In this document: piece by piece, positions 1 through 24,702 of the stretch
How the letters are laid out: each line of letters starts with the position of its first letter
How positions within the stretch are numbered: position 1 is the first letter of the stretch
Assembly (NCBI GenBank): GCA_022843095.1
Contig: JALHOH010000001.1
Coordinates: 300,001-332,000 of the forward strand
Reading direction: 5' to 3'
DNA length: 32,000 bases
Source of the DNA: Candidatus Saccharimonadota bacterium
GTDB taxonomy: Bacteria > Patescibacteriota > Patescibacteriia > 2-12-FULL-60-25
The notes under the pieces: model-generated
Databases searched by the model: none
What the model was told of the DNA's origin: nothing
Seen by the model: only the letters and a program-made list of their open reading frames with translations
Made by a program: the position numbers and the translations under genes

Positions 1-855
1 CGCGGCAGCGGCATCGACCACAAGCAAGGTATGCACCCACACATCTCCCTCCGGATGCCATTCCGGTTCCTGGGGCGTTCCGATGCAGGCGGCAAGTTCA
101 GGATAATCGCGCGCGATGATGCCGAGATCACGAAGCAGGGTAAGTCCAAGGGATGGACGATGCGCGCGTAAAAAGAGCTTGCGCAGTTCTTCGGTCACGC
201 GTTCCTTGGAAAGGTGCGCCAGCATCCCATCCTCCACCATGCGTGTGAGTAACGCGCGCGTGTCCGGATCCAGCGTCGCTTCAAACCGTGCGGCAAACTG
301 GACGGCGCGGTAGATGCGAAGCGGATCCTCCACAAACGTCGTCGCATCCACAACGCGCAGTCGCCGTGCACGAATGTCTGCCTCCCCATGGAACGGATCG
401 ATAAGCGCGCCGGTACGCACGTCCAAGAGCAGCGCGTTCATCGTAAAATCACGGCGTCGGCAGGCATCCTCAAAGGAAAGATGCGGATCACCGGTCACGG
501 CAAAATCCGCATGTCCTTCGCCCGTTTTGGATTCACGGCGGGGGAGCGCAAGATCGATCGTGACGCCGGGTTCGACCACGAGTTTAAGAACGGCGAATGC
601 GTCGCCCACGGTAAGCACGCGCGCCGCTCCAAACTGCCGTTCAAGCAAGGCGCGTAAGGTGGATGCCGGTACGCCGTAGATTTCTAGGTCGGCATCGTCC
701 GAGGGGCGCGAAAGGAGTGCATCACGAACACACCCTCCCACAAAAAAGGCGCGTGGCGGTTGCGCGCCCAGGGAATCCTGTGGCAGTGCCGCAATGGCGG
801 CAGCGATCGCGCGACAGGTTTCCGTGAGGGCGGGATGGGTGAAGGCGGGGAACAT
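1..855 (-). CDS. cca: CCA-adding enzyme / poly(A) polymerase family tRNA nucleotidyltransferase (N-terminal 285 codons; C-terminus lies beyond the window start)
   Basis: Absent from the ORF track because it runs off the window edge. Reverse-strand translation from the ATG at 855 reads MFPAFTHPALTE..FFVGGCVRDALL..DDADLEIYG..RRDFTMNALLLD..EDPLRIYRAVQFAARF..EWHPEGDVWVHT. It has the GGxVRD, DxD and RRDFTxNA motifs of the class II nucleotidyltransferase head. The frame stays open down to position 1. Confidence 0.8.
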   Translation of the reverse strand, partial: MFPAFTHPALTETCRAIAAAIAALPQDSLGAQPPRAFFVGGCVRDALLSRPSDDADLEIYGVPASTLRALLERQFGAARVLTVGDAFAVLKLVVEPGVTIDLALPRRESKTGEGHADFAVTGDPHLSFEDACRRRDFTMNALLLDVRTGALIDPFHGEADIRARRLRVVDATTFVEDPLRIYRAVQFAARFEATLDPDTRALLTRMVEDGMLAHLSKERVTEELRKLFLRAHRPSLGLTLLRDLGIIARDYPELAACIGTPQEPEWHPEGDVWVHTLLVVDAAAA

Positions 856-17951: not shown

Positions 17952-18536
17952 ATGGAAAAAACTTTGGTACTGATTAAGCCGGACGGCGTTCAGCGCGGCT
18001 TGGTGGGTGAAATCATTGGGCGTTTTGAACGGGTGGGGCTCAAATTGGTCGCCATGAAGATGGTTCATGCCTCCCATGACGACGTGGATAAGCATTATGC
18101 GCTTACGGAAGAATGGATGAAGGCGGTTTACGACAAGGCAAAAGCGAAATATGAGGCAAACGGACAGCCGTTCCCATATCCGGATCACATTGCGTACGGG
18201 ACGGAGATCAAGCGTGGATTGGTGGATTTCCTGAAATCTTCCCCGATCATTGCCCTTGTTTTGGAAGGGGAGATGGCGGTGTCGTTGGTCCGGAAGCTAG
18301 TCGGGTCCACCGAACCGGCGAGCTCGGCCCCGGGAACGATCCGCGGCGATTTGTCCCACGATACCTACGCGCTTTCCAACACGCAGAACCGCCCGCTTCG
18401 CAACCTCATCCACGCCTCCGGGAATGTGGAAGAAGCGAACAACGAGATCAAGGTGTGGTTCACGGATACGGAGCTCTACAAGTACGAACACGTGAACGAT
18501 CGCGTGCAGTACGACCCCGCCTGGTTCATGAGCTAG
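17952..18536 (+). CDS. ndk: Nucleoside diphosphate kinase (expanded, 194 aa)
   Basis: KTLVLIKPDGVQRGLVGEIIGRFE, TIRGD and NLIHASGNVEEANNEIKVWF (active-site His) are present. There is an insertion of about 30 aa (LTEEWMKAVYDKAKAKYEANGQPFPYPDHIAYGTEIKRG) and a C-terminal extension. Confidence 0.9.
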   Translation: MEKTLVLIKPDGVQRGLVGEIIGRFERVGLKLVAMKMVHASHDDVDKHYALTEEWMKAVYDKAKAKYEANGQPFPYPDHIAYGTEIKRGLVDFLKSSPIIALVLEGEMAVSLVRKLVGSTEPASSAPGTIRGDLSHDTYALSNTQNRPLRNLIHASGNVEEANNEIKVWFTDTELYKYEHVNDRVQYDPAWFMS

Positions 18537-18541
18537 GCTGT

Positions 18542-18574
18542 AACCCCCGACCCCTGGTCGGGGGTTGCTTTTTT
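18542..18574 (+). terminator. Intrinsic terminator after ndk
   Basis: AACCCCCGAC-ccctg-GTCGGGGGTT followed by GCTTTTTT. Confidence 0.7.
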
Positions 18575-18614
18575 GCCAGTTTTTCGCAAGGATCGGTCTT
18601 GGAGGATGTGGTTC

Positions 18615-19949
18615 ATGGATGAACGGCAGCGATCCATTGATCGAGTCAGAACGTTATTCCCCGCGCTTGCCGCTTTTGACGCAGAGGACGCGTCGGGAGC
18701 GGGAAGTGAGGAAACAGAGGATCCGCACTCCATCCTGTATGGAGAAGGGAGGCGCTGGAAGCTCTTGCTCCGCGAGTTGGCGCGAGGCCTTGCCGTGGTA
18801 AAGCGGCAAGGGTTTTCTGCGGCGACGGCGCACGATTTCTTGCTGCGTCGTTTGCATGCGTACTACTTCGGGGATCTGCGTGACGGTGGTCGTCGCACGG
18901 TTCCAATGTATCGAGGGCGGCCAAGCGATTTTGAGGCGGATATGCGCCGATGGGAGCAATCCTGCCTGGATGTCGAGCGGACGTATCAGTACCTGTCGCG
19001 CTGGTTGCCGGAGGAGCTGAATGGGCGACGCATGACGGAGGTGCTGGAGCGCGGTCACGTAGCGGAGACGGATGATCCGCTTGAGCTCATCCGCCTTGCG
19101 GGGAGTCCGAATCGGAAGACGCGTCACTTCGCCCGATCAAAACTCGTTATGGCGCAGTTCTCGATGGAGCAGCGTCGGCATGGATATGACCCGTCTGCGC
19201 TGCAAAGCGAACGACGGGATCTGGAGTCCTTTCTGGACCGAGTGCTGTTCCAGGAGCCGGAAGGCGATGCAGTTTGGCTCATTGCAGAGCTGGATCCGAA
19301 GGACCGGTATCGCTGCATCGCTTACCACATCCTGACAGATGAGAACGCGCCACCTGAGTCGTCCGCAAGTCGGTACCAGGTGCGACTGGAACGACGGTGG
19401 ATTCGGGTCGCAGGACGATCTGACCCGGTTCCCGTGTTCTTTTTCCACCGGGTGAAAGAACACATTATCCTGAAAGCACTCACCAAAGACGAGCGGTTCC
19501 TGGAACTGCTCGATTTGGGAGATGCGATCGCCATGATGTTCGTCATGGATCGCGAAGAGATGGATGCGGTGACTCCGGCCATCCGGCGTGTGCTTGTTCC
19601 GTGTCCGGGGCAAGTATGTAATCAAGGGTCCAGCGTCGGATTTCGGATGGGGAACGGACGGCTGGATCCGGCCAACCCTCATTCGAGCCAAACCTACGAA
19701 GCGCAAAAGTACAATGCGTTGGTCTGCGACCGTGTCGTCGAAGTCCAGTTTGTCCCGGTGAGCGCCTGGGTGAACGCACGCACGATGGTGGGTGAGGTCA
19801 ACCATCTGTACTACAAGTTGCGGAAACATCTAAACGACGTGTTTCCTGTGCTGTTTCCGCGAGGACTCTTCGGAGTCGACTGGTCGGATGTACAGGTCCA
19901 GGGGATGTGCCAAGCGCATGTTCGCCGGCGCGTCGCTCCTGAATCATGA
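18615..19949 (+). CDS. Hypothetical protein with a C-terminal divergent RelA/SpoT-like (small alarmone synthetase fold) nucleotidyltransferase domain
   Basis: GGAGG at 18601-18605 lies 9 nt before the ATG at 18615; the track start at 18573 sits inside the ndk terminator. The C-terminal motifs occur in the order FHRVKEHIILKALTKDERF, LDLGDAIAMMFVMDREEMD, TYEAQKYNALV, VVEVQFVPVSAWVNARTMVGEVNHLYYK. These resemble the RxKxxxSxxxK, DxxGxR, YxSxH and ExQxRT..W..HxxYK elements. I am more confident that this is a real CDS (about 0.8) than in the domain call. Confidence 0.4.
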   Translation: MDERQRSIDRVRTLFPALAAFDAEDASGAGSEETEDPHSILYGEGRRWKLLLRELARGLAVVKRQGFSAATAHDFLLRRLHAYYFGDLRDGGRRTVPMYRGRPSDFEADMRRWEQSCLDVERTYQYLSRWLPEELNGRRMTEVLERGHVAETDDPLELIRLAGSPNRKTRHFARSKLVMAQFSMEQRRHGYDPSALQSERRDLESFLDRVLFQEPEGDAVWLIAELDPKDRYRCIAYHILTDENAPPESSASRYQVRLERRWIRVAGRSDPVPVFFFHRVKEHIILKALTKDERFLELLDLGDAIAMMFVMDREEMDAVTPAIRRVLVPCPGQVCNQGSSVGFRMGNGRLDPANPHSSQTYEAQKYNALVCDRVVEVQFVPVSAWVNARTMVGEVNHLYYKLRKHLNDVFPVLFPRGLFGVDWSDVQVQGMCQAHVRRRVAPES

Positions 19950-20014: not shown

Positions 20015-20172
20015 AGGGATAAGAGTCGCGTGAGGATTCGGGCTAACATTCAGCTGAGGAGACGTGATCTAGGGTATGCGCCGTGGCGCAGCTGTGATGT
20101 CTCCAGCGGTACGTTTCCACCTTGCGTTTGTCCGTGCTGGATCACTCTGGCGCGTTCGACGAATGGCGGTGT

Positions 20173-20214
20173 GAGCCCACTTACCAACAGCCGAATGCCT
20201 CACGGGCTCTTTTT
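20173..20214 (+). promoter_or_regulatory. Terminator-like element within the leader (GAGCCC..GGGCTC plus T5), with a competing GTGAG/CTCAC pairing
   Basis: GAGCCC at 20173-20178 pairs with GGGCTC at 20204-20209 and is followed by TTTTT. GTGAG at 20171-20175 can instead pair with CTCAC at 20199-20203. The element lies 40 nt upstream of the SD-ATG of the next gene. Confidence 0.3.
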
Positions 20215-20255
20215 CGTTTGCGCGTGTGTTATGGTGATAAAGAGGAGGAGTATTG

Positions 20256-20753
20256 ATGGGACAAATACCGGTGTGTTTTATCGCAAAGTCGGTTGCAGAA
20301 TTGGAGCGCGCACGTCGTTTGCGTGCCCAGAGCGAAGGGAGGGATGTGATCGGAGAATCTTCTCTTGATGTCCTGCGTGAACAAGCCTTTACGGTGGTTC
20401 GGGAGCGCGCAGAGGTCCTGAATGTCGGGGGGTTCGAAAGCGGTCAATTTCCCGTGCGTCGCTCTTCGGACGCTGCGGGTGATGAGGAGGTCATGTGGCT
20501 GACGCAGGCATGCGGATTGGTATTTGAGCTTACCTATCCGGATATGCGGGTCCACGGACTTCTTGGGATCGGCGCCCTTGCTCTGAATCATCCAACGCTG
20601 ATCTTGGTGCATAAGACGTTTGCAATTCCGTCGAATACGATCACGGAACGATCTAACGTGCAGGTCTACGGGTATGATTCTTTGAAAGGGATTGTCTCTA
20701 CCGTGGAGACGTTTCTTGCAGGAATCAAGCTCCCCGCTCGTCTTGCTCGATAA
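20256..20753 (+). CDS. Hypothetical protein, 165 aa
   Basis: A strong Shine-Dalgarno sequence (GAGGAGGAG, 20241-20249) lies 6 nt before the ATG at 20256; the track start at 20253 is TTG. No recognisable motif. A terminator follows. Confidence 0.65.
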   Translation: MGQIPVCFIAKSVAELERARRLRAQSEGRDVIGESSLDVLREQAFTVVRERAEVLNVGGFESGQFPVRRSSDAAGDEEVMWLTQACGLVFELTYPDMRVHGLLGIGALALNHPTLILVHKTFAIPSNTITERSNVQVYGYDSLKGIVSTVETFLAGIKLPARLAR

Positions 20754-20754
20754 G

Positions 20755-20789
20755 GCCCGTTCACGCCTGTTGGACGGGCTTTCTTTTTG
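20755..20789 (+). terminator. Intrinsic terminator after the 165-aa gene
   Basis: GCCCGT-13 nt loop-ACGGGC followed by TTTCTTTTT. Confidence 0.55.
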
Positions 20790-21032
20790 TCTTGCCTGGT
20801 TTTCTTCGTTCTGATACATTTTCCCCGCTCGCGCAGAATCAGCCCCCGGGCCCCCGTTTCCCGAGGTCCGCCGAAGCAATGGGGTACGCGTAGGTTCTGG
20901 AAGGGGTTAGCGAGCGAAGTGAGCGCGAAGGGGAAACCTGGATACAGGTTGCCACTCGAAGCGCAGCGATTGCGCAGACCTAAGTGAGCCTCGAAAGATG
21001 TGAACGGGTGGTCAGCGCAATAACGCGAGTAC

Positions 21033-21107
21033 GCCGAGGTAGCTCAGTGGTAGAGCGAAGGACTGAAAATCCTTGCGTCGCCAGTTCGATCCTGGCCCTC
21101 GGCACCA
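21033..21107 (+). tRNA. tRNA-Phe (anticodon GAA), CCA encoded
   Basis: Acceptor GCCGAGG/CCTCGGC, D arm GCTC-agtggta-GAGC, anticodon arm AAGGA-ctGAAaa-TCCTT, T arm GCCAG-ttcgatc-CTGGC. Confidence 0.92.
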
Positions 21108-21108
21108 T

Positions 21109-21136
21109 AAAAAAACATCCTAACGGGTGTTTTTTT
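21109..21136. terminator. Bidirectional intrinsic terminator after tRNA-Phe
   Basis: A7-CATCC-taac-GGGTG-T7. Confidence 0.6.
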
Positions 21137-21175
21137 CATACAGCAAAATACCCGCCTTTCGGCGCGTATGCTTGT

Positions 21176-21195
21176 TGGAGCGGGTGAGGGGAATC
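21176..21195 (-). repeat. 20-nt direct repeat TGGAGCGGGTGAGGGGAATC (second copy at 21351-21370, the 3' end of tRNA-Gly)
   Basis: Exact match read directly from the sequence. The two copies start 175 nt apart. Confidence 0.9.
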
Positions 21196-21248
21196 CTGCT
21201 CCTTCGCACCGAGATGTGAAATAGAGATTGTGTTCGGTGCTCACCCGC
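21176..21248 (-). ncRNA. tRNA-Gly-derived tRNA-like element or pseudo-tRNA (73 nt)
   Basis: The minus strand reads GCGGGTG AG CACCGA-acacaatctctatttcacatc-TCGGTG CGA AGGAG-caggatt-CCCCT CACCCGC T CCA. The acceptor stem, discriminator, CCA and the 3' 20 nt are identical to tRNA-Gly at 21351-21425. The D and anticodon arms are replaced by one hairpin with a G-less 21-nt loop. A hairpin with a short T-run follows at 21152-21173. Confidence 0.45.
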
Positions 21249-21319
21249 AGCCTGGGGTTCTCGGATGCAATATCGGTTGCATCCTCGGGTCCCGTTCGAC
21301 TCCCCATTTTTTACTTAAA

Positions 21320-21348
21320 CAAAAAACGTCCGATGAAGGACGTTTTTG
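21320..21348. terminator. Bidirectional intrinsic terminator immediately 3' of tRNA-Gly
   Basis: A6-CGTCC-gatgaa-GGACG-T5. Confidence 0.6.
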
Positions 21349-21350
21349 TG

Positions 21351-21425
21351 TGGAGCGGGTGAGGGGAATCGAACCCCTCTCAGCAGGTTGGAAACCTGCG
21401 GTAATAGCCACTATACGACACCCGC
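21351..21425 (-). tRNA. tRNA-Gly (anticodon TCC), CCA encoded
   Basis: Minus strand: acceptor GCGGGTG/CACCCGC, anticodon arm GCAGG-ttTCCaa-CCTGC, T arm AGGGG-ttcgatt-CCCCT. Length 75 nt. Confidence 0.9.
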
Positions 21426-21502
21426 ATGCATCATGTATCGAAAGACATTCTGCATGATTGTCGGAAGTCTTTCAAGAGGTGGCGGGGTGTGGAGAGAAAA
21501 AG

Positions 21503-24541: not shown

Positions 24542-24628
24542 GGAACCTCCTGATCAAGACGGTACGTCGGGGAGAGGGGAAGACGCAAGAACGCATCCGG
24601 ATGGATGCGTTCTTTTTCCAGGGCTTTG

Positions 24629-24702
24629 TCGGGGTGACAGGACTTGAACCTGCGGCCTCCTGCTCCCAAAGCAGGCGCTCTAGCCAACTGAGCTACACCC
24701 CG
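24629..24702 (-). tRNA. tRNA-Pro (anticodon TGG), CCA not encoded
   Basis: Minus strand: acceptor CGGGGTG/CACCCCG, anticodon arm CCTGC-ttTGGga-GCAGG, T arm GCAGG-ttcaagt-CCTGT. The discriminator A is followed by CAA. Confidence 0.9.

What the first reader, a model, noticed from the sequence alone, without database searches (positions are those of the whole stretch)
21176..21248. 73-nt tRNA-like element: tRNA-Gly acceptor stem, T-arm remnant and CCA, with the D/anticodon region replaced by a hairpin carrying a G-less 21-nt loop
Seen in sequence: on the minus strand, 103 nt downstream of tRNA-Gly(TCC), lies the sequence GCGGGTG-AG-CACCGA[acacaatctctatttcacatc]TCGGTG-CGA-AGGAG-caggatt-CCCCT-CACCCGC-T-CCA. 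Its last 20 nt are identical to the 3' end of tRNA-Gly, and its first 7 nt are identical to the tRNA-Gly 5' acceptor strand. It can therefore form the full 7-bp acceptor stem with discriminator and CCA, plus a T-arm with one A-C mismatch. The middle shares no similarity with the tRNA. It forms a 6-bp stem whose 21-nt loop contains no G, so the loop cannot self-pair. A hairpin with a short T-run follows at 21152-21173. A simple attachment-site duplication of a tRNA 3' end would not conserve the 5' acceptor strand at tRNA-like distance. Inference: possible explanations are a decayed tRNA-Gly paralog, a scar of an integration and excision event, or a functional tRNA mimic. A mimic could be processed by RNase P/Z and CCA-charged, and could act as a decoy or guide whose exposed loop pairs with a G-rich target. 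Its position about 1.2 kb from a toxSAS-like gene, a family with members that modify the tRNA CCA end, makes a decoy role worth testing, but that idea is speculative.
Basis: partly seen in the sequence, partly recalled or inferred. Interest (0 to 1): 0.65.

Follow-up and report, generated by a model that had tools for sequence, protein, structure and literature searches.

The report
RtT-like trailer element after tRNA-Gly
The 73-nt "tRNA-like" sequence is real, but it is the 3' part of a larger structured element that follows tRNA-Gly genes in several uncultivated bacteria.

Summary
On the minus strand, 21248..21176 carries the tRNA-Gly 5' acceptor strand, a 6-bp hairpin with a 21-nt G-less loop, a degenerate T-arm, and an exact copy of the last 20 nt of tRNA-Gly(UCC) including CCA. 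ARAGORN and Rfam do not call it a tRNA.

It is not a stand-alone 73-mer. A metagenome scan found five independent units downstream of tRNA-Gly genes (window, L017, L029, L030, L022). They share:
- a 5' motif, GGGGAAUCGAAC (window 21305..21294), complementary to the T-loop/T-stem 3' strand;
- two or three internal hairpins of unrelated sequence;
- the tRNA-Gly 3' end.

In L022, L029 and L030 the predicted fold closes by pairing the 5' motif with GAUUCCCC, leaving the acceptor strand and CCA free. This is the Rfam consensus architecture of E. coli RtT (RF00391). The window and its closest relative, L017, additionally carry an acceptor-5' strand and form a minihelix.

The G-less hairpin is absent from all relatives. 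One syntenic relative (L035) lacks the whole unit.

The neighbouring 458-aa gene shows only weak fold similarity to Rel/SpoT enzymes and does not co-occur with the element.

Best reading: an RtT-like tRNA-operon trailer RNA of unknown function. Expression is untested.

The parts
21351..21425 (-). tRNA-Gly(UCC) with encoded CCA. It is the source of the repeated 3' end. Its promoter-like site, TTGAAA-17-CAGAAT, lies at 21475..21447.
   Evidence: ARAGORN; Rfam tRNA model, 57.4 bits; promoter scan.
21321..21347 (-). Terminator T1 (AAAAACGUCC-UUCAUC-GGACGUUUUUU), directly after tRNA-Gly. The unit lies beyond it, so transcription of the unit needs read-through.
   Evidence: Sequence. Equivalent hairpin plus U-run sits in L017 and L022 and L035. 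The simple terminator scan did not list it.
21282..21306 (-). Conserved 5' block 'M1', UGGGGAGUCGAACGGGACCCGAGGA. Its core GGGGAGUC (21305..21298) is complementary to GAUUCCCC (21195..21188). The 12-nt GGGGAGUCGAAC is antisense to the tRNA-Gly T-loop and T-stem 3' strand (one G.U pair).
   Evidence: 21 of 25 identical to L017. GGAAUCGAA is also present at the same relative place in L029, L030 and L022. Pattern search.
21263..21284 (-). Hairpin A: 8 perfect pairs (GGAUGCAA / UUGCAUCC) with loop CCGAUA. Relatives have a hairpin at the same place with unrelated sequence.
   Evidence: Folds. A perfect hairpin of 8 bp or more occurs in 2.8% of random 110-nt segments of the window but in 4 of the 5 units.
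21253..21257 (-). CCCCA run. In the predicted MFE it pairs with UGGGG of M1 and closes the 5' domain.
   Evidence: L017 has ACCC at the equivalent place.
21176..21248 (-). The 73-nt tRNA-like element of the finding: a 7-bp acceptor stem, one hairpin replacing the D and anticodon arms, a degenerate T-arm (one A.C mismatch, loop CAGGAUU), discriminator U and CCA.
21207..21239 (-). Lineage-specific hairpin: 6-bp stem CACCGA/UCGGUG with a 21-nt G-less loop (21233..21213). Absent from all related units.
   Evidence: no counterpart. (no target in the window; G-less runs are common).
21176..21195 (-). Exact 20-nt copy of the tRNA-Gly 3' end: end of the T-loop, T-stem 3' strand, acceptor 3' strand, U73 and CCA.
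   Evidence: 2 copies, 0 expected.
21144..21166 (-). Weak hairpin plus UAUUUUG (T2) following the CCA.
   Evidence: Sequence. Not reported by the terminator scan.
21109..21136 (.). Bidirectional terminator T3, shared with the convergent tRNA-Phe (21033..21107, + strand). It is conserved in L017 with compensatory changes.

Best explanation
**What it is.** The 73-nt element is the 3' domain of a roughly 131-nt structured unit (21306..21176, minus strand) that forms the distal part of the tRNA-Gly transcription unit. It is analogous to the RtT repeats behind E. coli tyrT/tyrV.

**Parts of the unit.**
- A 5' segment antisense to the T-loop/T-stem 3' strand.
- Internal hairpins that vary freely in sequence.
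- A copy of the tRNA's last 20 nt.

**How it most likely works (inferred).**
1. Transcripts that read through the terminator after tRNA-Gly carry the unit.
2. The copied tRNA end gives the RNA a tRNA-type 3' terminus.
3. In most family members this terminus is a helix followed by a free ACCCGCUCCA tail.
4. In the window and in L017 it is closed into an acceptor/T minihelix by an extra 5' acceptor-like strand.
5. tRNA-maturation enzymes (RNase P, 3' trimming that stops at CCA, CCA repair) can therefore define and stabilise its ends.

**What is shown and what is not.**
- Shown: the anatomy, its recurrence in four other lineages, conservation of the end blocks, and excess predicted structure.
- Inferred: transcription, processing, and any role in trans.
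- Unknown: the downstream function, as is also the case for RtT.
- The G-less hairpin is a lineage-specific insertion and is not part of the core.
For: **Recurrence.**
- A scan of 241 million metagenome records for the 20-mer not preceded by a canonical T-loop gave 17 loci.
- In 7 distinct ones the fragment lies 46-134 nt downstream of a tRNA-Gly.
- L022 adds another unit behind a displaced tRNA-Gly 3' fragment.

**Closest relative, L017/L018/L025.**
- Its tRNA-Gly differs from the window's by 1 nt.
- It has the same order: tRNA-Phe(+), unit(-), tRNA-Gly(-).
- Its spacer is otherwise unalignable with the window's.
- It nevertheless keeps M1 (21/25), GGGUGAG, the T-stem 5' strand and the 3' end.

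**The M1 motif.** GGAAUCGAA sits at the same relative position in L029, L030 and L022.

**Predicted structure.**
- All five units are more structured than shuffles: z = -2.8, -4.4, -2.8, -2.5 and -7.1.
- Four of the five have a perfect hairpin of 8 bp or more, against a 2.8% background.

**RtT-like fold.**
- The closing helix between M1 and GAUUCCCC is the MFE in L029, L030 and L022 (12 bp).
- The Rfam RtT consensus has the same design: GgGaaGGAU pairs with AUCCuuCcC, ccaCCACCA stays free, and each unit ends in the last 19 nt of tRNA-Tyr.

**Independence from integrases.**
- In L022 an integrase-bearing element sits in the real tRNA-Gly and the unit lies beyond it. The unit is therefore chromosomal trailer, not the integrating element.
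- The window has no integrase or transposase.

**Precedent.** sRNA genes lying between dual terminators of stable-RNA operons and transcribed by read-through are described in PMC8144298 (abstract).
Against: - There is no expression data.
- A strong terminator (T1) separates tRNA-Gly from the unit in the window, L017 and L022, and no promoter-like site precedes the unit.
- The syntenic relative L035 has tRNA-Gly followed directly by a terminator and a convergent gene, with no unit. The unit is therefore dispensable or recently gained or lost.
- In the window the RtT-like closing helix is not the preferred fold (-47.0 vs -50.0 kcal/mol; pair probability about 0.01).
- There are only five units. 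Ascertainment required the exact 20-mer, so conservation of the 3' end cannot be counted as evidence except for the window-L017 pair.
- The 3' strand is invariant, so no covariation test of the closing helix is possible.
- The RtT covariance model does not match. The likeness is architectural and not demonstrated homology.
Confidence: 0.5

Rival explanations
1. The unit is a non-functional recombination scar. A tyrosine-integrase element once integrated at the T-loop-to-CCA block of tRNA-Gly, duplicating the 3' end. Almost all of it was later deleted, leaving about 155 nt between two direct repeats. The hairpins and the 5' motif are leftovers of att arms.
For: - The identity starts inside the T-loop and runs to CCA, the classic extent of tRNA att cores (from established knowledge of tRNA-targeting integrases).
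- The same block is a real att core elsewhere. In L022 a Phage_integrase gene (E = 1e-10) abuts a tRNA-Gly 3' fragment. In L020, IS110 and IS3 transposase genes lie upstream of a fragment.
- Seven loci have the fragment with no tRNA within 0.4-3.6 kb, which is island-like.
- The unit is absent from the syntenic L035.
Against: - The window has no integrase or other mobile gene, and only 155 nt lie between the repeats.
- A scar would not keep M1 at 21/25, the acceptor-like strand and the hairpin positions between the window and L017, whose spacers are otherwise randomised.
- A scar would not show consistent excess structure in five lineages.
- In L022 the unit lies outside the integrated element.
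- The origin could still have been such an event. That concerns history, not present function.
Confidence: 0.22
2. The unit is a decayed tRNA-Gly paralogue: a tandem second tRNA-Gly gene (for example a lost isoacceptor) whose middle was scrambled by deletions and insertions.
For: - 5' and 3' acceptor strands lie at tRNA-like distance, and the T-stem 5' strand is 4/5 identical.
- L023 and L026 also have an acceptor-like 5' strand directly after the upstream tRNA.
- L017 carries a decayed 5' fragment of tRNA-Pro 58 nt upstream of its tRNA-Pro, so tRNA relics do occur in this lineage.
Against: - Decay is not uniform: 20/20 and 7/7 identity at the ends, but no similarity over the middle 46 nt.
- The conserved M1 block lies outside any tRNA-sized frame.
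- L029, L030 and L022 have no 5' acceptor strand at all yet keep M1 and the closing helix.
- The element does not score with the tRNA model even at E <= 10.
Confidence: 0.1
3. A 73-nt tRNA mimic is made by RNase P/Z and carries CCA. Its exposed G-less loop guides it to a G-rich target, or its CCA end acts as a decoy for a neighbouring toxSAS-like enzyme.
For: - The window's MFE is the tRNA-like fold, with an intact G1-C72, C2-G71, G3-C70, U73 and CCA.
- The five best Foldseek hits of the neighbouring 458-aa protein are all Rel/SpoT catalytic fragments, and SAS1 and FaRel2 appear lower in the list.
- By eye the protein has an EVQ...H..YK pattern like RelA/SpoT-homologue (RSH) synthetases. This is inspection of the sequence, not a test.
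- According to a preprint, rtT RNA is likely involved in modulating the stringent response, with the mode of action unknown (10.1101/2024.07.17.603846).
Against: - The loop hairpin is absent in all four related units and has no complement in the window. G-less runs are common (22 on that strand).
- L017 breaks the first two acceptor pairs.
- The fold matches are not significant (E >= 0.012, TM 0.2-0.28, model pLDDT 61). All sequence-profile searches are negative.
- The gene's ortholog is present in L035 without the element, and the units in L017, L029, L030 and L022 have no such neighbour.
- No antitoxin-like partner is evident.
Confidence: 0.05
4. The feature acts at the DNA or transcription level only. 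It would be a stack of hairpins serving as a terminator or insulator between the convergent tRNA-Gly and tRNA-Phe genes, or as a spare or decoy copy of the integrase target, with no stable RNA product.
For: - The unit lies between terminators T1 and T2/T3 of convergent tRNA genes.
- It has several perfect hairpins.
- tRNA-Gly is demonstrably an integration target.
Against: - Hairpin A and the family's internal hairpins lack U-runs.
- An insulator has no need for an exact copy of the tRNA end including CCA, nor for a conserved antisense motif.
- In L022 and L029 the unit is not between convergent genes.
- In L022 the integrase used the real tRNA and not the spare copy.
Confidence: 0.1

Closest known systems
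RtT RNA / rttR (Rfam RF00391): the 178-bp repeats distal to E. coli tyrT and tyrV
   Same: - Both lie directly behind a tRNA gene in the same orientation.
- Each unit ends in an exact copy of that tRNA's last 19-20 nt, starting inside the T-loop and including CCA.
- An upstream segment is complementary to the T-loop end and T-stem 3' strand. In the consensus structure it closes a multi-hairpin RNA and leaves the acceptor 3' strand plus CCA unpaired.
- The function is unknown in both.
   Different: - Different tRNA (Gly, not Tyr) and a very different host (Patescibacteria-like, not Enterobacteria).
- No detectable sequence or covariance-model similarity.
- The window has a single unit, not 3.14 tandem copies.
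- A terminator separates it from the tRNA.
- The window and L017 add a 5' acceptor-like strand that makes a closed minihelix.
- There is no small ORF equivalent to tpr.
att-site duplications of tRNA 3' ends made by tyrosine integrases (genomic islands, prophages)
   Same: A direct repeat of the tRNA segment from the T-loop to CCA. The same tRNA-Gly block is used next to an integrase gene in L022.
   Different: Only 155 nt lie between the repeats, the window has no mobile genes, a conserved structured interior is shared by diverged lineages, and a 5' acceptor strand is present.
tRNA-like domains lacking an anticodon arm (tmRNA tRNA-like domain, mascRNA, viral TLS, minihelices)
   Same: In the window: acceptor stem, T-arm-like helix with a continuous 3' strand, discriminator and CCA, with a single helix replacing the D and anticodon arms.
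   Different: - The T-loop lacks U54-U55-C56 (CAGGAUU).
- There is no tag ORF and ARAGORN makes no tmRNA call.
- tmRNA_permuted scores 17.1 bits against a gathering threshold of 47. The only mascRNA match (19.4 bits against 42.5) lies on the real tRNA-Gly, not on the element.
- The tRNA-like closure is not conserved across the family.
sRNAs made from the ends of stable-RNA operons: rrA/rrB/rrF between dual rrn terminators (PMC8144298); 3'ETS-leuZ sponge (from memory)
   Same: A short structured sequence lies between a first and a second terminator at the end of a stable-RNA operon, so it would be expressed by read-through or processing.
   Different: Those RNAs do not copy the tRNA 3' end. Expression and partners are shown for them and not for this element.

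Membership tests
RtT RNA (RF00391) | Lies in the distal part of a tRNA operon, same strand, directly downstream of the tRNA | tested here: met
   The unit at 21306..21176 (-) lies 44 nt downstream of tRNA-Gly at 21425..21351 (-). Same in L017, L029 and L030.
RtT RNA (RF00391) | Unit ends in an exact copy of the tRNA's last ~19 nt from the T-loop through CCA | tested here: met
   20/20 identity, 2 copies in the window, 0 expected. For comparison, E. coli has AAUCCUUCCCCCACCACCA.
RtT RNA (RF00391) | Closing helix between an upstream segment and the T-loop/T-stem 3' strand, with the acceptor 3' strand and CCA left free | tested here: inconclusive
   In the window 8 bp are possible (GGGGAGUC:GAUUCCCC), but the fold is 3 kcal/mol worse than the minihelix fold and its probability is about 0.01. 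It is the MFE in L029, L030 and L022 (12 bp).
RtT RNA (RF00391) | Tandem repetition of the unit | tested here: not met
   The 20-mer has only two copies, the tRNA and one unit. L017 has a possible partial second 5' motif.
RtT RNA (RF00391) | Match to the family covariance model | tested here: not met
   No RtT hit at the gathering score, at E <= 10 around the element, or at E <= 5 in the related loci. The model scores 133-138 bits on E. coli.
RtT RNA (RF00391) | A discrete RNA released from the tRNA primary transcript | not testable with these tools
   No transcriptome data are available.
tRNA (gene or pseudogene) | Cloverleaf with D arm and anticodon arm, recognised by tRNA finders | tested here: not met
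   ARAGORN finds 4 tRNAs and not this element. The Rfam tRNA model gives no match even at E <= 10. The middle 46 nt are unrelated to tRNA-Gly.
tRNA (gene or pseudogene) | 7-bp acceptor stem, discriminator, CCA | tested here: met
   GCGGGUG/CACCCGC, U, CCA.
tRNA (gene or pseudogene) | Canonical T-loop (U54 U55 C56) | tested here: not met
   The loop is CAGGAUU and the stem has an A.C mismatch.
Integrase att-site duplication / genomic island | Direct repeat of the tRNA 3' segment | tested here: met
Integrase att-site duplication / genomic island | Integrase or other mobile-element genes between or beside the repeats | tested here: not met
   Pfam scans of the window's large ORFs show housekeeping genes only. 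Only 155 nt lie between the repeats.
Integrase att-site duplication / genomic island | Presence/absence polymorphism among relatives | tested here: inconclusive
   Absent in the syntenic L035. Present, with diverged sequence, in L017.
tmRNA | tRNA-like domain plus tag reading frame, recognised by ARAGORN or Rfam | tested here: not met
   No tmRNA call. tmRNA_permuted scores 17.1 bits against a threshold of 47.
toxSAS toxin with tRNA-CCA decoy | Neighbouring gene has a RelA/SpoT synthetase domain | tested here: inconclusive
   No Pfam, NCBIfam, PADLOC or PDB-sequence match. The AlphaFold model (pLDDT 61) gives Rel/SpoT fragments as its top Foldseek hits, but at E 0.012-0.2 and TM 0.2-0.28.
toxSAS toxin with tRNA-CCA decoy | Gene and RNA element co-occur in relatives | tested here: not met
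   L035 has the gene but no element. L017, L029, L030 and L022 have the unit without such a gene in the flanks held.

The most novel reading that the evidence does not exclude
RtT-like units are a widespread class of RNAs that arose repeatedly or are very old. In each, the trailer of a tRNA operon carries a copy of the tRNA's own 3' end, held by an antisense T-arm segment. They present an uncharged-tRNA-like CCA terminus to factors that read or modify tRNA ends, such as RelA/SpoT-family enzymes, CCA-modifying toxins, RNase P or the CCA-adding enzyme, and so tune the stringent response or protect tRNA-Gly. In this window an RSH-like gene lying 1.2 kb away would be the partner.
Probability: 0.07. 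Interest if true: 0.85.

Novelty: new variant of a known kind. Interest (0 to 1): 0.5.

Why it matters
RtT, the repeat family behind the E. coli tRNA-Tyr genes, has been known for decades. Its mode of action is still described as unknown, and Rfam's model found it only in the E. coli locus examined here.

An architecturally equivalent unit now turns up behind tRNA-Gly in a Patescibacteria-like genome and in four other uncultivated lineages. This suggests the design is a general solution and not an enterobacterial oddity. The design has three parts: an antisense T-arm segment, variable hairpins, and a copy of the tRNA 3' end with CCA.

That would make the old question of what such trailers do approachable by comparative genomics. 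One could ask which tRNAs have them, which lineages carry them, and which genes co-occur. It would also add an unannotated structured RNA to genomes with very few known non-coding RNAs.

For annotation, the finding warns that short tRNA 3'-end repeats next to tRNA genes are not always integration scars.

Tried and rejected
- **Synteny through the adjacent histidine-phosphatase gene.** I used the GTDB genome scan, a homolog search and three contig look-ups. The nearest homolog is 63% identical and none of the loci has tRNA-Gly next to the gene.
- **NDK look-up.** It returned only a 1.9-kb contig from the same organism.
- **First metagenome pattern.** It required the 5' acceptor strand, a non-canonical T-loop and the 3' end. 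It gave 0 hits and 0 in viral contigs, so the exact tRNA-like 73-mer design is not found elsewhere.
- **Viral contig scans.** The hairpin-with-loop sequence and the non-canonical 20-mer are both absent.
- **Complement of the G-less loop in the window.** The best match has 7 mismatches of 21.
- **Rfam at permissive thresholds** on the window region and all related loci. Nothing was consistent. The weak tmRNA_permuted hit (17 bits) is explained by the tRNA pieces.
- **A small ORF starting at the M1 motif.** MG(S/N)RTG is shared by the window and L017, but the conserved 3' end is read in different frames and L029 has no start codon. Rejected from the sequences.
- **M1 as the T-arm of a tRNA on the opposite strand.** The T-stem would not pair. 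Rejected from the sequences.
- **Homology between the window's 166-aa ORF and the ORF upstream of tRNA-Phe in L025.** Not supported (E = 14).
- **Last homolog search, on the L025 ORF.** It found only itself.
- **The 1991 RtT paper (PMC329039).** Not held in the library.
- **Flank comparison (ACAA... after each CCA)** to decide which copy is ancestral. Ambiguous.
Full report
**1. The observation**

- Its last 20 nt are identical to the 3' end of tRNA-Gly(UCC) at 21425..21351. The 20-mer occurs only twice in the window even with 2 mismatches allowed, and none is expected by chance.
- The first 7 nt equal the 5' acceptor strand. From the window's own frequency of GCGGGTG, the chance of that heptamer in a given 60-nt interval is about 0.9%.
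- The predicted fold is the proposed one: MFE -26.3 kcal/mol, z = -3.7.
- ARAGORN does not call it a tRNA, nor does the Rfam tRNA model, even at E <= 10.
- The 21-nt loop has no G, but 22 G-less runs of that length or more occur on the same strand of the window. The loop composition alone is therefore not remarkable.

**2. Where the window comes from**

- The surroundings are housekeeping genes: gpsA, tRNA-Arg, RNase III, NusB, NDK, a histidine phosphatase, an RlmI-like methyltransferase, tRNA-Pro, glycosyltransferase and DUF4012.
- The histidine phosphatase sits on a 683,555-bp contig. Its best relatives, at most 63% identical, are labelled Patescibacteria.
- One NCBI metagenome-assembled genome (GCA_963851785.1, locus L035) is strongly syntenic with the window.
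- The window has no integrase, transposase or phage gene.

**3. Relatives**

- Synteny through the neighbouring protein failed.
- A metagenome scan for the tRNA-like design itself found nothing.
- A second scan, for the 20-mer not preceded by a canonical T-loop, gave 17 loci. They fall into two groups:
  - seven loci with no tRNA within 0.4-3.6 kb, which look island-like. One of them, L022, has a Phage_integrase gene and an XRE repressor beside a tRNA-Gly 3' fragment, and another, L020, has IS110 and IS3 transposases;
  - seven distinct loci with the fragment only 46-134 nt downstream of a tRNA-Gly gene.
- Among 15 or so tRNAs in loci that were not selected by this pattern, none has such a downstream fragment. 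E. coli tyrV does.

**4. The real unit**

- L017/L018/L025 are three identical contigs.
  - Their tRNA-Gly differs from the window's by one base.
  - Their gene order is the same: tRNA-Phe(+), fragment(-), tRNA-Gly(-).
- Aligning the whole spacer between the two tRNAs shows that nearly everything has diverged beyond recognition except three things:
  - a block UGGGGA(G/A)UCGAACGGG...CGAG(G/A)A (window 21306..21282; 21 of 25 identical);
  - the last ~35 nt;
  - the terminator shared with tRNA-Phe.
- The same GGAAUCGAA motif ('M1') sits at the equivalent place in L029, L030 and, found later, L022.
- M1 is the reverse complement of the T-loop and T-stem 3' strand of tRNA-Gly. Its first eight bases can therefore pair with the GAUUCCCC that begins the copied 3' end.
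- Between M1 and the 3' end, every unit has two or three strong hairpins of unrelated sequence.
- Four of the five units contain a perfect hairpin of 8 bp or more, which only 2.8% of random 110-nt pieces of the window do.
- Whole-unit z-scores are -2.8, -4.4, -2.8, -2.5 and -7.1.
- The 33-nt hairpin with the G-less loop has no counterpart in any relative.

**5. Two ways of closing the structure**

- In L029, L030 and L022 the minimum-energy fold pairs M1 with (C)GAUUCCCC(UC), using 6-12 bp. This encloses the hairpins and leaves the acceptor 3' strand plus UCCA as a 9-14-nt tail.
- L017 has, next to the T-stem, a strand CGGGGUGAGGGGA that pairs continuously with UCCCCUCACCC. This makes a minihelix, but its first two 'acceptor' pairs are broken.
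- The window splits the same strand into GCGGGUG and AGGAG, with the extra hairpin between them.
- In the window the two folds differ by only 3 kcal/mol.
- The tRNA-like closure is thus a feature of the window/L017 branch. It is not the conserved core, and aminoacylation identity is not conserved. G1-C72 and C2-G71, together with the missing anticodon bases C35 and C36, matter for glycylation (PMC9976931).

**6. The closest known thing**

- I fetched the E. coli K-12 tyrT-tyrV region.
- Each RtT unit (four matches to RF00391 at 133-138 bits) ends in AAUCCUUCCCCCACCACCA, the last 19 nt of tRNA-Tyr from the T-loop on.
- The Rfam consensus structure closes the RNA by pairing an upstream GgGaaGGAU with AUCCuuCcC, leaving ccaCCACCA free.
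- That is the same plan as the units found here.
- The RtT model itself does not match them. I claim likeness of architecture and position, not family membership.
- rttR is annotated as an sRNA processed from the tyrT transcript (PMC3318445). Its mode of action is still described as unknown, with a suggested link to the stringent response (preprint).
- sRNAs located between two terminators at the end of rrn operons and made by read-through give a precedent for the T1-unit-T2 layout (PMC8144298 abstract).

**7. Scar or function?**

- The tRNA-Gly T-loop-to-CCA block is a genuine integrase target (L022).
- The unit is missing from the syntenic L035, where tRNA-Gly is followed at once by a terminator and a convergent gene.
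- An integrative or duplicative origin is therefore plausible, and the unit is not essential.
- Several observations argue that the unit is now maintained:
  - the retention of M1, of the strands that pair with the copied end, and of hairpins at matching positions;
  - this retention holds between lineages whose spacers are otherwise randomised and whose tRNA-Phe genes (aligned with part of the adjoining terminator) are only 89% identical.
- In L022 the unit lies beyond the displaced tRNA fragment next to the integrase. It is therefore part of the chromosome's tRNA trailer, not of the integrating element.
- Against an RNA role:
  - there is no promoter-like site before the unit;
  - a good terminator precedes it in three of the five loci;
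  - no expression data exist.
- I put about 0.5 on a transcribed RtT-like trailer RNA. The remaining probability is split mainly between a non-functional scar (about 0.2), a DNA-level role and a decayed paralogue.

**8. The toxSAS idea**

- The 458-aa ORF (18573..19949) has no match in Pfam, NCBIfam, PADLOC or PDB sequences, even with a three-sequence profile.
- It has only two homologs among 5.8 billion proteins.
- An AlphaFold model of moderate quality (pLDDT 61, pTM 0.54) gives Rel/RelSeq/SpoT catalytic fragments as its five best Foldseek hits. SAS1 and FaRel2 appear further down. The scores are E = 0.012-0.2 and TM 0.2-0.28, which is not significant.
- By eye the sequence contains VEVQF...NHLYYK, reminiscent of the EXQIRT...HWXYK motifs of RelA/SpoT-homologue (RSH) synthetases. 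This is my reading of the sequence and is not tested.
- However, the gene belongs to a conserved ndk-linked block in L035 and L036, and L035 lacks the element. The other units have no such neighbour. There is no evidence of coupling.

**9. Limits**

- There are only five units.
- The scan demanded an exact 20-mer and a non-canonical T-loop. Distribution is therefore underestimated, and conservation of the 3' end is partly built in by the search.
- The taxonomy of L022, L029 and L030 was not determined.

**10. Verdict**

The G-less loop and the 73-nt limits are not the conserved features, and the toxSAS link is unsupported.
- The element is best filed as a new, tRNA-Gly-linked variant of the RtT kind of tRNA-operon trailer, with function unknown.

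Noticed in passing
window 20030-20215 (+); L035 8916-9118; L036 3428-3622: A conserved ~185-nt non-coding region lies downstream of the 458-aa gene. It starts GUGAGGAUUCGGGCUAA, ends AGCCGAAUACCUCA, and is followed by a U-run. RNAalifold on the three sequences predicts 55 pairs, 20 of them with compensatory changes. There is no Rfam match at E <= 1. It is a candidate unannotated structured RNA (6S-like in size and shape; not tested).
   Followed up: partly
window 18573-19949 (+): A 458-aa ORF has only two homologs in 5.8 billion proteins and no profile match. The AlphaFold model's top Foldseek hits are all Rel/SpoT catalytic fragments, at non-significant scores. It may be a very divergent RelA/SpoT homologue, conserved next to ndk in L035 and L036.
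   Followed up: partly
window ~20202-21032: About 830 nt lie between the conserved non-coding block and tRNA-Phe, where L036 has only about 80 nt. The stretch holds overlapping ORFs of 166 aa (+) and 216 aa (-) with no family match. It may be an insertion or a decayed gene.
   Followed up: no
L017 837-880 (-), also L018 and L025: A decayed 5' portion of tRNA-Pro (acceptor strand, D arm, start of the anticodon arm) lies 58 nt upstream of the intact tRNA-Pro, inside its leader. This is a second kind of tRNA fragment beside a tRNA gene in the closest relative.
   Followed up: partly
L017 ~375-395 (-): A second M1-like motif (GGAAGGAAUCGAGUGGGGGAC) lies after the unit's own terminator. It may be the start of a partial second unit, recalling the 0.14 extra repeat of E. 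coli rtT.
   Followed up: no
L017 ~560-575 (-) and window 21207-21240 (-): The terminator hairpin after tRNA-Gly in L017 (GCACCGAG-ACC-UCGGUG) has the same stem sequence as the window's lineage-specific hairpin (GCACCGA...UCGGUG). This could be chance, or a hint that the insert derives from a terminator hairpin.
   Followed up: no
L028 824-868 (-): The fragment-bearing unit behind a tRNA-Gly(CCC) looks like a tRNA-Gly(UCC) T-arm (GAGGG-UUCG...CGAUU-CCCCUC) with two palindromic hairpins inserted in the T-loop. The two stems are the same and the loops are each other's complement (REPIN-like). z = -5.4.
   Followed up: partly
L022 168-1569 (-): A tyrosine integrase gene and an XRE repressor end in a 24-nt tRNA-Gly 3' fragment (acceptor CAUCCGC). 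This shows an integrative element inserted in the tRNA-Gly gene upstream of an M1-type unit.
   Followed up: yes
window 24628-24702 (-): tRNA-Pro(UGG) does not encode CCA (the gene is followed by CAAAG). tRNA-Gly, tRNA-Phe, tRNA-Arg and the element all do. The organism therefore needs a CCA-adding enzyme.
   Followed up: partly
window 17952-18536 (+): The nucleoside diphosphate kinase is 194 aa and matches Pfam NDK in two separate stretches, so it carries an insertion relative to the 135-residue domain model. Relatives have 194-203 aa.
   Followed up: no
window 21033-21425 versus L035 9166-9967: tRNA-Phe and tRNA-Gly are convergent and 243 nt apart in the window and in L017. In the otherwise syntenic L035 they are divergent, with a 165-aa gene between them. 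A local rearrangement coincides with presence or absence of the unit.
   Followed up: partly
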